Below, piece by piece: positions 12,001 through 15,000 of a DNA stretch of 64,000 nucleotides (positions are counted from its first letter, which is position 1; every line of letters starts with the position of its first letter). This DNA is from Escherichia coli (lineage in GTDB: Bacteria; Pseudomonadota; Gammaproteobacteria; Enterobacterales; Enterobacteriaceae). Position numbers: made by a program. Location of the stretch: NCBI RefSeq assembly GCF_016026235.1, contig NZ_CP065613.1; one strand, written 5' to 3'.

Positions 12001-15000
12001 TAAGCAAGCGGCTGATGGTGGTGCGGTAAATACCCAGTTCGAGCGCGATTTGCGCCTGCGTCATATCCTGTTCGTAATAGAGTTGGGCAATCTTCACAAT
12101 CAAACGGATATCGTCACTGTTTTCCATTGCCGCCTCCTGGTTCTGCACATTTGTGCAAATACGCTTTCTCACCGCTTGATCTGATATAACCCCATCATGA
12201 GGGCCTTTCAAAGCGATTTTTCACTCTTTGCATGGGGAGAAATAGCGCTTTCTCTTGCACATTTGTTTCTCTGCGTAGTAGTCATCAGCACAGGTGTGCA
12301 GCGATTCGTAATATGTTGATTATCCTTATTTTGCCAGGCAAATTTGCATCGTACTTCCGGAGACACTTTTGTGATAAAAGGCGTGGCAGATCACATTTAA
12401 TTTCGACGTTGCCGCATAACCCTGTTTTTCCCCGCTAAGAGGTACGGTATATTCCGCGTTTTACAGGAGAATTTATGCTGCCCGACTCATCAGTCCGTTT
12501 AAATAAATACATCAGCGAAAGCGGAATTTGCTCACGCCGCGAAGCGGATCGCTATATCGAGCAAGGCAATGTGTTCCTTAATGGCAAGCGAGCCACCATT
12601 GGCGATCAGGTGAAACCCGGCGACATTGTGAAAGTAAACGGTCAGTTGATTGAGCCTCGGGAAGCCGAAGATTTGGTACTTATCGCCCTGAACAAGCCCG
12701 TCGGTATTGTCAGCACCACCGAAGATGGCGAGCGCGATAACATTGTCGATTTCGTTAACCACAGCAAACGCGTGTTCCCGATTGGCCGCCTGGATAAAGA
12801 CTCCCAGGGGCTGATTTTCCTCACCAATCACGGCGATCTGGTGAATAAGATCCTCCGTGCGGGTAACGATCATGAGAAAGAGTATCTGGTGACGGTAGAT
12901 AAACCGATTACCGATGAATTTATTCGTGGTATGGGGGCGGGAGTGCCGATCCTCGGGACGGTGACGAAAAAGTGCAAAGTCAAAAAAGAAACTCCGTTTG
13001 TCTTCCGCATTACCCTGGTGCAGGGGCTGAACCGTCAGATCCGTCGCATGTGCGAGCATTTCGGCTATGAAGTGAAAAAGCTGGAACGTACGCGCATTAT
13101 GAACGTCAGCTTAAGCGGCATTCCGCTGGGAGAATGGCGCGATTTAACCGACGACGAGCTTATCGATCTCTTTAAGCTCATCGAAAATTCCTCTTCCGAG
13201 GCAAAACCTAAAACGAAGGCCAAACCGAAAACGGCGGGCATCAAACGTCCAGTCGTTAAGATGGAAAAAACGGCGGAAAAAGGCGGTCGCCCGGCGTCCA
13301 ACGGTAAGCGTTTTACCTCGCCGGGGCGTAAAAAGAAGGGGCGCTAATCAGCGCCTGCCGCGCGTCGACGTATTTGCTGACCAGCTAAATGACGCTTCAG
13401 GATCCGGTTTATAAGCCTGCTTTTTCTTCAATTGGCGGGCTTTTTTTGCTTCAGCCTCACGCTCAACCATTAATTTATCGATGTAATCTTTCTTAATGCT
13501 GTTGGTTTCGGAGTTGGTCAATACGCGACCATGCGCAATCCGCGCCCGATCCAGCAGTGTTTTAAGTTCACGCTGCTCGCGTTCAGTCATCTCTTTTTGG
13601 GTAATACGGGGGAGTGCCATGATGGTGCCCTCAGTGAGCCAGAGAGTTCAGTATACGGGAATTCGTTTGCGAGCAGAACTGATAATATTCATTTTGCCTT
13701 CTCTTAACTATTTATCTCTTTCGATAATTAATTAGAGATGCAGATAAAAAAATTAAAGGCAATTATTCTCCGATAAAGACGCTGGTTAACAGAGTACAGG
13801 CTCGTTTATTGATGAGCATAGTGACAAGAAAATCAATACGGCCCGAAATATAGCTTCCAGGCCATACAGTATTTACTCAAACAAATTAAAATGCAGCTTC
13901 TGCACCACCTGCTCGGCATCTTCGCCGGGCACCAGGAAGCACAGGTTATGGCTGGATGCGCCATAACAAATCATGCGAATGTTGAACGGTTCCAGTACGC
14001 CGAATACCTCTTTGCCAACGCCGCAGGCTTTTGACAGGTCATTGCCAATCAACGCGACCAGCGCCAGACCTTCTTCTACTTCCACCCGGCACAGTGCGGA
14101 AAGCTCCATCAGCAGAGATTGCGTCAGCAACGTATCGCCAGTGGAGGTTGAACCCGTGGTATCAAGGGTTAATGCCACGCTCACTTCTGACGTGGTGATT
14201 AAGTCTACCGAAATATTATGCCGCGCGAGGATGCTGAAAACTTCCGCGAGGAAGCCGCGAGAATGCAGCATATTCAGGCTGTGCAAAGTGAGCAGAGTCT
14301 GATTGCGACGAAGCGCCAGCGCGCGGAACAGCGGCGGATTTTCAGTTTTATTGCACACCAGCGTACCACCTGCGCGTGGGTCTTTGCTGGAGCCGACAAA
14401 GACCGGGATATCGCTGCGTACTGCGGGTAGCAATGTTGCCGGATGCAGTACTTTTGCACCAAAAGTTGCCATCTCTGCTGCTTCGGCAAACGCGATTTCA
14501 TCAATGCGTTTTGCTGCGGAAACCACGCGTGGATCGGTGGTGTAGATGCCCGGGACGTCGGTCCAGATATCAACACGAGATGCGTGTAAAGCCTCCGCCA
14601 GCAAGGCTGCCGTATAATCGCTGCCTCCACGGCCAAGCGTCGTTGTACGACCTTTATTTTCGCTACCGATAAATCCCTGGGTGATCACTAAGCCTTCATT
14701 GAGGCGTGGGAGCAGCTGCAGCGCGGCCAGTTCCGCCAGCGCGGCTACATCTGGCTCTGCACGACCAAATCGGTCGTTGGTACGCATCACTTTACGTACA
14801 TCAAACCACTGTGCCTGAACATCGCGTTCGCGCAGGATCTCGACAAACAGCAGGGTCGACATCAGCTCGCCGTGGCTGACCAGTTCATCTGTCAGCGCCG
14901 GAGACGTTGCCAGCGCCGCCGCTTCTGCCAGAACAGTAATGTTCTCCAGCAGACGTTCAATCTCTTCACGGATAACGTTCGGGTAACGTAGACGTTCCAG

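What the first reader, a model, noticed from the sequence alone, without database searches (positions are those of the whole stretch)
12130..12275. Inverted and direct TGCACA repeats upstream of sorC: candidate SorC operators
A perfect inverted repeat TGCACA-TT-TGTGCA lies just upstream of the likely sorC start, and a second tgcacatttg copy (within agcgctttctcttgcacatttgtttct, which echoes acgctttctcacc near the first) lies about 110 bp further upstream. SorC-family regulators autoregulate and bind repeated operators, so these are plausible SorC sites controlling the operon.
Basis: inference. Interest (0 to 1): 0.35.

Follow-up and report, generated by a model that had tools for sequence, protein, structure and literature searches.

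The report
SorC operator sites flanking sor promoter
The repeated TGCACA palindromes upstream of the E. coli sorbose regulator gene sorC are real, deeply conserved and almost certainly its own DNA-binding sites, an expected kind of feature whose conserved layout hints at how SorC both represses and activates.

Summary
A perfect TGCACA-TT-TGTGCA dyad (O1, 12144-12157) lies 16 nt upstream of the sorC ATG (12127, minus strand). An exact 11-nt copy (O2, 12256-12266) lies 112 bp further upstream.

One 6-bp inverted repeat is not beyond chance. The set is: all four TGCACANNTG matches in the 64 kb fall in these three sites.

In 27 enterobacterial sorC loci, O1 is essentially invariant and O2 and the O3 arms are conserved, while flanking DNA differs at 52-61% of positions. 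Spacings are fixed at O3-O1 143 bp and O2-O1 112 bp. Distant sor operons (Brenneria, Yersinia, Orbus) keep O1 and O3 142-144 bp apart.

SorC relatives in Bacilli carry the same 14-bp dyad upstream of their own genes, and its third base varies along with their recognition helices. The geometry matches the crystallographically defined B. subtilis DeoR half-operator.

The sites are therefore very probably SorC operators flanking a predicted sigma-70 promoter: O1 near +26, O2 near -86, O3 near -117. Binding, the transcription start and any looping are inferred. This is an ordinary kind of feature, with an operator layout unusual for the SorC family.

The parts
12144..12157 (.). O1: perfect 14-bp dyad TGCACATTTGTGCA (sorC orientation TGCACAAATGTGCA). 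It lies 16 nt upstream of the sorC ATG, next to the Shine-Dalgarno sequence, at about +20 to +33 from the predicted transcription start.
   Evidence: 0 of 14 positions differ in 8 of the 9 species compared (Serratia 1 of 14), while the flanks differ at 52-61% in the species outside the E. coli clade. Block 12160-12141 has mean identity 0.96. Present in Brenneria, Yersinia and Orbus.
12253..12269 (.). O2: conserved half-site. The exact 11-nt copy TGCACATTTGT is at 12256-12266. The conserved block in sorC orientation is CAAATGTGCAAGA, 12265-12253. Its centre at 12262.5 is 112 bp from the O1 centre, about -86 from the predicted start.
   Evidence: D3. Conserved block. 112-bp spacing in every sorCDFBAME-type locus where the exact half-site is found. 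A full dyad TGCACAAACGTGCA in Kluyvera, 101 bp from O1. Absent in Brenneria and Yersinia.
12287..12300 (.). O3: near-perfect dyad AGCACAGGTGTGCA (sorC orientation TGCACACCTGTGCT). It lies 143 bp from O1 and 31 bp from O2, about -117 from the predicted start.
   Evidence: (D2, I1). The GCAC-N4-GTGC arms are conserved with a variable spacer. O3-O1 is 143 bp in all enterics, 143 in Brenneria, 144 in Yersinia and 142 in Orbus.
12183..12211 (-). Predicted sigma-70 promoter of the sor operon: -35 TTGAAA (12211-12206) and -10 TTATAT/TATATC (12189-12183). The predicted start is about 12176-12177.
   Evidence: GGGGTTATATCAGATCAA (12193-12176) is one of the five most conserved blocks. Brenneria has TTGACA-17-TTATAT and Yersinia TTGACT-17-TTATAT, each at the same 32-nt distance from O1. 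The consensus scanner did not report it because the -10 is imperfect. The transcription start is inferred, not measured.
11180..12127 (-). sorC, the first gene of sorCDFBAME. It encodes a 315-aa regulator with a homeodomain-like helix-turn-helix and a sugar-binding domain.
   Evidence: translation. K. pneumoniae SorC structure 2W48, E 1.9e-182. PF04198 plus HTH; downstream SDR, EIIA, EIIB, EIIC, EIID and sorE.
12133..12138 (-). Shine-Dalgarno sequence AGGAGG of sorC.
   Evidence: Sequence. In most other genera a GGAG directly abuts O1.
12363..12398 (-). Upstream conserved blocks of uncertain role. The first is AAATGTGATCT, a CRP-like left half whose 22-mer (12398-12377) matches the CRP consensus at 16 of 22 positions. 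The second is TCACAAAAGTGT ('S4', a CAC-AAAA-GTG dyad related to the O motif).
   Evidence: blocks 12396-12388 and 12374-12363., D1 (S4 is 74% identical to O1 plus flank). An ATGTGA block is also present in Brenneria and Yersinia. Assignment to CRP or SorC is not established.

Best explanation
O1, O2 and O3 are binding sites for SorC, the regulator encoded by the first gene of the sorCDFBAME operon. Each 14-bp dyad of the form TGCAC-N4-GTGCA would be bound by one SorC dimer through its homeodomain-like helix-turn-helix, as B. subtilis DeoR binds TGAACAAAATTTCA. The sites flank a weak sigma-70 promoter: O1 at about +26, O2 at about -86 and O3 at about -117.

Proposed mechanism (inferred):
- Without L-sorbose, a SorC tetramer (a dimer of dimers) occupies O1 and bridges it to O3 and/or O2. 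This blocks initiation or early elongation and also limits sorC's own expression.
- With the inducer, cooperativity between the dimers is lost, O1 is vacated, and SorC remaining at the upstream sites O2 and O3 helps RNA polymerase at the poor -10 element.
- This would give the dual repressor and activator behaviour reported for Klebsiella SorC.

Shown here: the sites, their statistical non-randomness, their conservation and fixed spacing, their co-occurrence with SorC-type regulators across phyla, and their variation along with the recognition helix.

Inferred: physical binding, the transcription start, which sites mediate repression and which activation, and DNA looping.
For: 1. All TGCACANNTG matches and all TGCACANNTGTGCA matches (up to 1 mismatch) in the 64 kb fall in these three sites. 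An inverted repeat plus a copy of it occurs in 1 of 2000 shuffles.

2. Phylogenetic footprint. Against Citrobacter, Klebsiella, Raoultella, Pantoea, Serratia and Entomohabitans, 52-61% of non-site positions differ. O1 differs at 0-1 of 14 positions and O2 at 0-3 of 13. O1, O2 and the -10 block are three of the five most conserved blocks.

3. Spacing. O3-O1 is 143 bp and O2-O1 is 112 bp in all sorCDFBAME-type loci. In Brenneria, Yersinia mollaretii and Orbus, whose SorC is only 46-63% identical, O3-O1 is 143, 144 and 142 bp. In Kluyvera two full dyads lie 101 bp apart, which is 112 minus 11, one helical turn.

4. The motif follows the regulator. Hits matching at least 9 of 10 core positions number 51 in 17 kb upstream of SorC-like genes and 6 in 222 kb elsewhere in the same loci. 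Bacilli homologues with the identical helix LGIYRTTISR, next to unrelated target genes, have TGCACAATTGTGCT or TGCACATTTGTGCA plus a second site 19-20 bp away.

5. Variation with the helix:
- Planococcus, helix EINRVTVSR: TGAACATTTGTTCA and TGTACATTTGTACT.
- Oceanobacillus, DINRSTISR: TGAACAATTGTGCA.
- Exiguobacterium, GANRTNISR: TGCACAATTGTTCA and TGTACATTTGTGCA.
- B. subtilis DeoR, ISRPTVSR: TGAACAAAATTTCA (PMC11229326).

6. The SorC helix RTTISRLL aligns with DeoR RPTVSRLL and keeps both DNA-contacting arginines (PMC11229326).

7. SorC is a tetramer whose DNA-binding domains can contact two separate sites, and a switch between tetramer and dimers has been proposed to explain its dual role (PMC2943609).
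Against: - No binding, footprint or expression data exist here, and none were found in the searchable library.
- The transcription start is predicted only. The consensus promoter scan reported nothing.
- The E. coli spacings of 31, 112 and 143 bp do not fit the roughly two-turn (about 70 Angstrom) separation deduced from the SorC crystal tetramer. They also do not fit the 19-22 bp tandem operators of DeoR and of the Bacilli relatives. Bridging would therefore need DNA looping or bending, which is untested.
- O2 is only a half-site and is absent from the Brenneria and Yersinia sor operons.
- O3 carries arm mutations in a few species (L003, L012).
They may contain promoter-mapping data that would change the positions given here.
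Confidence: 0.8

Rival explanations
1. The dyads are sites for a different DNA-binding protein, such as a global regulator (CRP, Cra, Mlc or NtrC-like), and not for SorC.
For: No direct evidence links SorC to the sites. NtrC sites share the TGCAC/GTGCA arms (recalled from memory). A CRP-like half-site does exist further upstream at 12388-12396.
Against: The motif occurs upstream of SorC-type regulator genes in both Enterobacterales and Bacilli, whatever the neighbouring target genes are. Its third base changes when the recognition helix of the adjacent regulator changes. The geometry (5-bp arms, 4-bp spacer) equals the DeoR half-operator. It does not equal the N6 spacing of CRP or the N7 spacing recalled for NtrC. 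No other copies exist in the 64 kb.
Confidence: 0.05
2. O1 is conserved because it forms a hairpin in the sorC 5' untranslated region that controls translation or mRNA stability. Its resemblance to O2 and O3 would then be secondary.
For: O1 is predicted to be transcribed and directly abuts the Shine-Dalgarno sequence in most genera. The minimum-free-energy fold contains the O1 stem.
Against: Folding energy is no better than for shuffles (z = -0.54; 50 of 200 shuffles fold at least as well). There is no Rfam match. The arms are invariant, so there is no compensatory change to support pairing. The same dyad recurs at predicted non-transcribed positions (O3, O2) with fixed spacing. A DNA dyad necessarily gives an RNA hairpin, so a minor additional RNA effect cannot be excluded.
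Confidence: 0.05
3. The sites bind SorC, but without bridging or looping. O1 is a simple roadblock or occlusion operator. O2 and O3 are independent activator sites whose fixed spacing only reflects each site's required distance from the promoter.
For: The -10 to O1 distance is fixed at 32 nt in E. coli, Brenneria and Yersinia. This alone would fix the O3-O1 spacing if O3 must sit at a set distance from the -35 element. CggR also represses from an operator downstream of the start, at +32 to +77.
Against: SorC is a tetramer with two separated pairs of DNA-binding domains. In the Bacilli relatives, and in DeoR and CggR, two sites are always used together. The Kluyvera spacing differs by 11 bp, one helical turn, as expected if the helical face matters. 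None of this is decisive.
Confidence: 0.3
4. The repeats are a chance or hitch-hiking feature with no function.
For: A single perfect 6-bp inverted repeat is expected about 0.7 times in a region of this size. The CGCTTTCTC echo and the adjacent GAGAAA-N6-TTTCTC inverted repeat (12237-12254) are lineage-specific.
Against: See (combined test). The evidence is clustering, invariance amid near-saturated flanks, fixed spacing across lineages with 46-63% protein identity, and roughly 110-fold enrichment upstream of SorC-type genes.
Confidence: 0.01

Closest known systems
[quoted passage not shown]
   Same: The 14-bp dyad geometry matches: TGAACAAAATTTCA against TGCACAAATGTGCA, with half-site TTGAACA against TTGCACA, differing at one base. 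The regulator has the same homeodomain-like HTH plus sugar-binding domain, with a nearly identical recognition helix (RPTVSRLL against RTTISRLL). It uses a full palindrome plus a half-site repeat, as O1/O3 plus O2 do here and as in the Bacilli SorC relatives.
   Different: The two DeoR half-operators are about 22 bp apart and overlap the -35 region (-60 to -21), giving pure repression. In E. coli the sites are 31, 112 and 143 bp apart and flank the promoter. SorC is reported to activate as well as repress. deoR lies upstream of its operon, whereas sorC is the first gene of its own.
B. subtilis CggR operator of the gapA operon (SorC/CggR subfamily; PMC2943609, PMC11229326)
   Same: The regulator is the first gene of the operon it controls. 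The operator lies downstream of the transcription start (+32 to +77), as O1 is predicted to. The regulator is a tetramer whose inter-dimer cooperativity is broken by a sugar-phosphate effector.
   Different: CggR has a winged-helix DNA-binding domain and an unrelated operator sequence (CGGGACN6TGTC repeats). Its operator is one compact 45-bp unit. It acts as a repressor only.
K. pneumoniae SorC (2W48) and the Klebsiella sor operon
   Same: It is the orthologue, matching at E 1.9e-182, and the DNA-binding domain differs at 2 residues. Other Klebsiella species carry the same O1, O2 and O3 with the same spacing (L009, L010, L015).
   Different: No published SorC operator could be found in the searchable library. 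A 2010 paper states that DeoR was the only other family member with an identified DNA site. The primary Klebsiella papers could not be read.
AraC (araO2-araI), GalR (OE-OI) and LacI loop-forming operator pairs
   Same: Operators lie on both sides of a promoter at about 100-200 bp. The regulator is oligomeric. AraC switches between repression by a loop and activation from promoter-proximal sites on binding its sugar. The spacing here is conserved, and one lineage differs by a single helical turn.
   Different: The protein families are unrelated. Looping is only inferred here. 143 and 112 bp are integral numbers of turns only if the helical repeat is about 11 bp.

Membership tests
Operator of a SorC/DeoR-subfamily regulator | A dyad-symmetric 14-16 bp half-operator with the geometry of the solved DeoR OL site (TGAAC-N4-tTTCA within TTGAACAAAATTTCAA) | tested here: met
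   O1 is TGCAC-AAAT-GTGCA, within TTGCACAAATGTGCAg. It has the same length and register as the DeoR site, and the half-site differs at one base (sequence; DeoR site from PMC11229326).
Operator of a SorC/DeoR-subfamily regulator | A cognate regulator gene of the family (homeodomain-like HTH plus NagB-like sugar-binding domain) at the locus | tested here: met
   sorC (11180-12127, minus strand) matches 2W48 at E 1.9e-182, DeoR 8R7Y at E 1.2e-39, and PF04198 plus HTH models.
Operator of a SorC/DeoR-subfamily regulator | Two half-operators about two helical turns (19-22 bp) apart, contacted by one tetramer | tested here: not met
   In the window the centre-to-centre distances are 31, 112 and 143 bp, and no site lies 19-22 bp from O1, O2 or O3. 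The feature is met in the Bacilli relatives, at 19-20 bp.
Operator of a SorC/DeoR-subfamily regulator | The motif co-occurs with orthologous regulators across lineages and tracks the recognition helix | tested here: met
   51 hits in 17 kb upstream against 6 in 222 kb elsewhere. Regulators with helix GIYRTTISR have TGCACA sites, while the INRVTVSR, INRSTISR and ANRTNISR variants have TGAACA or TGTACA sites.
Operator of a SorC/DeoR-subfamily regulator | Physical, effector-sensitive binding of the regulator | not testable with these tools
   This needs EMSA or footprinting with SorC, with and without L-sorbose or sorbose-1-phosphate.
Loop-forming dual operators (AraC, GalR, LacI type) | Operators on both sides of the promoter | tested here: inconclusive
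   The promoter is predicted only, from the conserved -35 and -10 blocks at 12211-12183. The scanner found none. If the prediction holds, O1 is at +26 and O2 and O3 are at -86 and -117.
Loop-forming dual operators (AraC, GalR, LacI type) | Inter-operator spacing is conserved, or changes by whole helical turns | tested here: met
   O3-O1 is 143 bp in all sorCDFBAME-type loci except Serratia (144), and 143, 144 and 142 bp in Brenneria, Yersinia and Orbus. O2-O1 is 112 bp, against 101 bp in Kluyvera.
Loop-forming dual operators (AraC, GalR, LacI type) | A demonstrated loop, shown by phase-dependent repression or by microscopy | not testable with these tools
   This needs helical-phasing insertions or single-molecule assays.
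cis-regulatory RNA in the 5' UTR | A match to a known family, or a structure more stable than chance with covariation | tested here: not met
   No Rfam hit at E <= 1. Fold z = -0.54. The O1 arms are invariant, so there is no covariation.
CRP site (upstream block 12377-12398) | TGTGA-N6-TCACA dyad at a class I or class II distance from a promoter | tested here: inconclusive
   The left half AAATGTGATCT is perfect and conserved. The right half is weak (ACGCC in the window, ACACC in Citrobacter). The centre lies about -211 from the predicted sor start, which is not a canonical CRP position.

The most novel reading that the evidence does not exclude
Enterobacterial SorC has abandoned the compact tandem operator of its family (two sites 19-22 bp apart, kept by its Bacilli relatives and by DeoR and CggR). 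It now uses a distributed set of operators that encloses the promoter, with an invariant 143-bp O3-O1 spacing and an added O2 half-site. The set would work as an AraC-like switch: a tetramer-bridged repression loop without sorbose, and dimers at O2 and O3 activating a weak promoter with sorbose. That rewiring would be the physical basis of SorC being the family's only known dual activator and repressor.
Probability: 0.35. Interest if true: 0.55.

Novelty: new member of a known kind. Interest (0 to 1): 0.4.

Why it matters
SorC gives its name to a large family of sugar-responsive regulators. No operator for SorC itself could be found in the searchable literature, and a 2010 paper implies none had been identified.

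The sites defined here give exact targets for footprinting, mutagenesis and structural work: three in E. coli, with a 14-bp consensus TGCAC-N4-GTGCA.

Two comparisons add to that. The recognition helix and the third base of the half-site vary together across relatives. The compact operator in Bacilli contrasts with the distributed one in enterics. Together they offer a testable route to the old question of how SorC both represses and activates the sor operon.

For genome annotation the result is routine: regulator binding sites upstream of an autoregulated catabolic operon.

Tried and rejected
- **Promoter and terminator scan.** It found nothing in 12000-12600. The promoter proposed here fails the scanner's -10 rule and rests on conservation instead.
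- **RNA explanations.** Rfam gave no hit, and the 5' UTR fold is no better than shuffles.
- **Small ORFs in the intergenic region.** Conservation is in blocks, not codon-like, so they were not pursued.
The echo also lies on opposite sides of O1 and O2. It was rejected as part of the operator.
- **A cryptic partner site 19-22 bp from O1, O2 or O3, as in DeoR and the Bacilli relatives.** None was found.
- **Literature.** Ten searches found no described SorC operator, and no paper contains the site sequence. The primary Klebsiella and E. coli sor papers and the SorC structure paper are not held. LsrR operator data could not be retrieved.
- **NtrC-like and sigma-54-like readings of TGCAC/GTGCA.** These were considered from memory and rejected on spacing.
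Full report
**Context**

The window is E. coli chromosome around pepE-sor-rluF-yjbD-lysC-pgi. The finding lies in the 347-bp intergenic region between sorC and rluF.
- sorC is on the minus strand at 11180-12127, with its ATG at 12127. rluF is on the plus strand at 12475-13347.
- sorC encodes a 315-aa protein. It matches K. pneumoniae SorC (PDB 2W48) at E 1.9e-182. Its N-terminal DNA-binding domain aligns with B. subtilis DeoR (8R7Y) and E. coli LsrR.
- Pfam finds the sugar-binding domain PF04198 plus helix-turn-helix models. The genes downstream on the minus strand are an SDR and EIIA, EIIB and EIIC of the sorbose PTS, followed by EIID and sorE. This is the sorCDFBAME operon.
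- The intergenic region is present in 2863 of 5426 complete E. coli genomes.
- In sor-negative strains, homology with the window starts only at about 12440, 35 bp before the rluF ATG. Everything from 12128 to about 12439 is therefore sor-specific DNA.

**Checking the observation**

- TGCACATTTGTGCA is at 12144-12157, a perfect inverted repeat (6-bp arms, 2-bp spacer), 16 nt upstream of the ATG.
- An exact 11-nt copy, TGCACATTTGT, is at 12256-12266, 112 bp away.
- A 9-nt exact repeat, CGCTTTCTC, is at 12162-12170 and 12246-12254.

I call the three sites O1, O2 and O3.

Whether this exceeds chance depends on what is counted.
- A single perfect 6-bp inverted repeat is expected 0.70 times in dinucleotide shuffles of this region.
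- An 11-nt exact direct repeat occurs in about 2% of shuffles.
- An inverted repeat plus a 10-nt copy of itself occurs in 1 of 2000 shuffles.
- In the full 64 kb, TGCACANNTGTGCA with up to 1 mismatch matches only O1 and O3, against 0.31 expected.
- All four TGCACANNTG hits lie in O1, O2 and O3, against 2.96 expected for the whole window.

**Comparative evidence within Enterobacterales**

A scan of one genome per species returned 27 enterobacterial sorC loci with 70-100% protein identity. They come from Escherichia, Pseudocitrobacter, Citrobacter, Klebsiella, Raoultella, Mangrovibacter, Cedecea, Enterobacter, Pantoea, Serratia, Entomohabitans and Kluyvera.

Their upstream regions show sharply bounded conservation. 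In sorC orientation, the five most conserved blocks are:
- ATGTGATCT, 12396-12388.
- TCACAAAAGTGT, 12374-12363.
- O2, CAAATGTGCAAGA, 12265-12253.
- GGGGTTATATCAGATCAA, 12193-12176.
- O1, ATTTGCACAAATGTGCAGAA, 12160-12141.

Against Citrobacter, Klebsiella, Raoultella, Pantoea, Serratia and Entomohabitans, 52-61% of positions outside the sites differ. O1 differs at 0 or 1 of 14 positions and O2 at 0-3 of 13. O3 differs mainly in its spacer and outermost bases.

The spacings do not change. O3-O1 is 143 bp, O2-O1 is 112 bp, and the -10 block to O1 distance is fixed wherever the sites are recognisable. Kluyvera has a shortened region with just two full dyads 101 bp apart. That is O2 as a complete palindrome, one helical turn (11 bp) closer.

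The CGCTTTCTC echo is found only in the E. coli/Pseudocitrobacter clade. It also sits on opposite sides of O1 and O2. I do not regard it as part of the operator.

**More distant sor operons**

A protein search and contig look-ups gave sorC-EIIABCD-dehydrogenase operons from Brenneria, Yersinia mollaretii and Orbus. Their SorC is 57%, 63% and 46% identical to the window protein. Their upstream DNA cannot be aligned with E. coli except for the sites.
- All three keep a dyad next to the ribosome-binding site and a second one 143, 144 and 142 bp upstream.
- Brenneria and Yersinia, like Entomohabitans, have a further full dyad about 125-137 bp beyond that.
- They lack O2.
- Brenneria has TTGACA-17-TTATAT and Yersinia TTGACT-17-TTATAT, at exactly the same 32-nt distance from O1 as the E. 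coli TTGAAA-16-TTATAT.

This is why I assign the conserved block at 12193-12176 to the -10 region and predict a start near 12176-12177. On that basis O1 is centred at about +26, O2 at about -86 and O3 at about -117.

The promoter is a prediction. The consensus scanner did not call it because the -10 is imperfect. A poor -10 is consistent with dependence on an activator.

**The motif follows the regulator, not the host or the targets**

SorC homologues in Bacilli are 43-48% identical and have the same recognition helix, LGIYRTTISR. These are Terrilactibacillus, Pseudalkalibacillus, Paenibacillus camerounensis and P. polymyxa. The two whose neighbouring genes were examined (Terrilactibacillus, P. 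polymyxa) sit next to a ribose-5-phosphate-isomerase-like gene and a GFO/IDH/MocA oxidoreductase, not sorbose genes.
- They have TGCACAATTGTGCT or TGCACATTTGTGCA upstream of the regulator gene.
- A second full or half site lies 19-20 bp downstream of the first.
- Over all 34 loci examined, sites matching at least 9 of 10 arm positions number 51 in 17 kb of upstream DNA and 6 in 222 kb of the rest.

Relatives with altered recognition helices have correspondingly altered dyads.

| Regulator | Recognition helix | Sites |
|---|---|---|
| Planococcus | EINRVTVSR | TGAACATTTGTTCA and TGTACATTTGTACT |
| Oceanobacillus (operon with sorC-SDR-EIIABCD order) | DINRSTISR | TGAACAATTGTGCA |
| Exiguobacterium | GANRTNISR | TGCACAATTGTTCA and TGTACATTTGTGCA |

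In all three the promoter-proximal site abuts the Shine-Dalgarno sequence, as O1 does in enterics.

**Comparison with solved family members**

The B. subtilis DeoR operator is ATTGAACAAAATTTCAATTACCAATTTACATATGTTCAA. DeoR dimers contact the 14-bp core TGAACAAAATTTCA, with base-specific contacts in TTGAACA made by R34 and R39 (PMC11229326).
- O1 (TTGCACAAATGTGCAg) has the same length and register, and its half-site differs at one base.
- The SorC helix RTTISRLL aligns with DeoR RPTVSRLL and keeps both arginines.
- DeoR and CggR bind as tetramers to two half-operators about two turns apart. The SorC crystal tetramer was judged compatible with two sites about 70 Angstrom apart (PMC2943609).

The Bacilli relatives fit this layout, at 19-20 bp. 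The E. coli sites do not, at 31, 112 and 143 bp. This is the one defining feature of the family's operators that is not met in the window. It is also the most interesting aspect of the locus.

**Mechanism**

I conclude with high confidence that O1, O2 and O3 are SorC binding sites. I conclude with moderate confidence that they act as follows.
- Without sorbose, tetrameric SorC holds O1 (in the early transcribed region) together with O3 and/or O2. The promoter is enclosed, and both the operon and sorC itself are repressed.
- With the inducer, inter-dimer cooperativity is lost, as shown for CggR and proposed for SorC in PMC2943609. O1 is freed, and SorC at -86 and -117 stimulates a promoter with a poor -10.

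The evidence for bridging is indirect. It consists of the invariant spacing, the one-turn difference in Kluyvera, and the tetrameric regulator. A simpler model explains most of the data equally well: an independent roadblock site plus independent activator sites.

Other readings are weak.
- An RNA role for O1 is not supported.
- Another protein binding the dyads is made unlikely by the co-occurrence of motif and regulator and by their variation together.

**Novelty**

No description of a SorC operator, and no paper containing the site sequence, was found in the searchable library. A 2010 paper states that DeoR was the only other family member with an identified DNA site.

The feature is an expected kind of thing: autoregulatory operators of a known regulator family. 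I classify it as a new member of a known kind, with a non-canonical distributed architecture that deserves an experiment.

Noticed in passing
window 12363-12398: Two further strongly conserved blocks lie upstream of O3. One is AAATGTGATCT, a perfect CRP left half; its 22-mer (12398-12377) matches the CRP consensus at 16 of 22 positions, with a weak right half. The other is the dyad TCACAAAAGTGT ('S4', CAC-AAAA-GTG, related to the O motif). They lie about 190-210 bp upstream of the predicted sor start, too far for canonical CRP activation. Brenneria and Yersinia also have an AAAATGTGA block, preceded there by a full O-type dyad. Their role is unexplained; it could be a second promoter, CRP, or a fourth SorC site.
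   Followed up: partly
window 12317-12350: Conserved TGCAAnTTTGC and (A/G)AATCAA blocks sit between S4 and O3. They could be read as a -10 (GATAAT, 12324-12319) pointing towards sorC. On the other strand they could be read as a -35 (TTGATT) plus CAAATT promoter pointing towards rluF. Neither reading was tested.
   Followed up: no
window about 12438-12475: The boundary of the sor-specific DNA lies only about 35 bp upstream of the rluF ATG. In sor-negative E. coli, unrelated pepE-rluF spacer DNA abuts the same point. The rluF promoter context therefore differs between sor+ and sor- strains. rluF is also the neighbour of sorC in Citrobacter, Klebsiella, Raoultella and Kluyvera.
   Followed up: partly
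L049 2597-3420 (E. coli E2865, NZ_AP018808.1): In this strain the intergenic region is 100% identical to the window, but the PTS EIID gene (sorM) is annotated as frameshifted. The corresponding ORF in the window (7695-8549, minus strand) is intact.
   Followed up: partly
window 12128-12440 versus L001 (E. coli E69): Two E. coli strains whose SorC match is reported as 100% identical (best segment) differ at 13% of intergenic positions outside the sites and at none inside O1, O2 or O3. The intergenic divergence is unusually high for one species and may mark a recombination boundary.
   Followed up: no
L047 about 3540-3790 (Orbus wheelerorum): Upstream of the Orbus sorC there are sequences that look like two tRNA genes (GGGGTGATTAGCTCAGTTGG... 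and GGGTCGTTAGCTCAGTCGG...). This suggests the sor operon there sits next to a tRNA cluster. No tRNA search was run.
   Followed up: no
window 12237-12254: A perfect inverted repeat, GAGAAA-TAGCGC-TTTCTC, lies next to O2. It is not conserved, even in E. coli E69, and is probably chance.
   Followed up: yes
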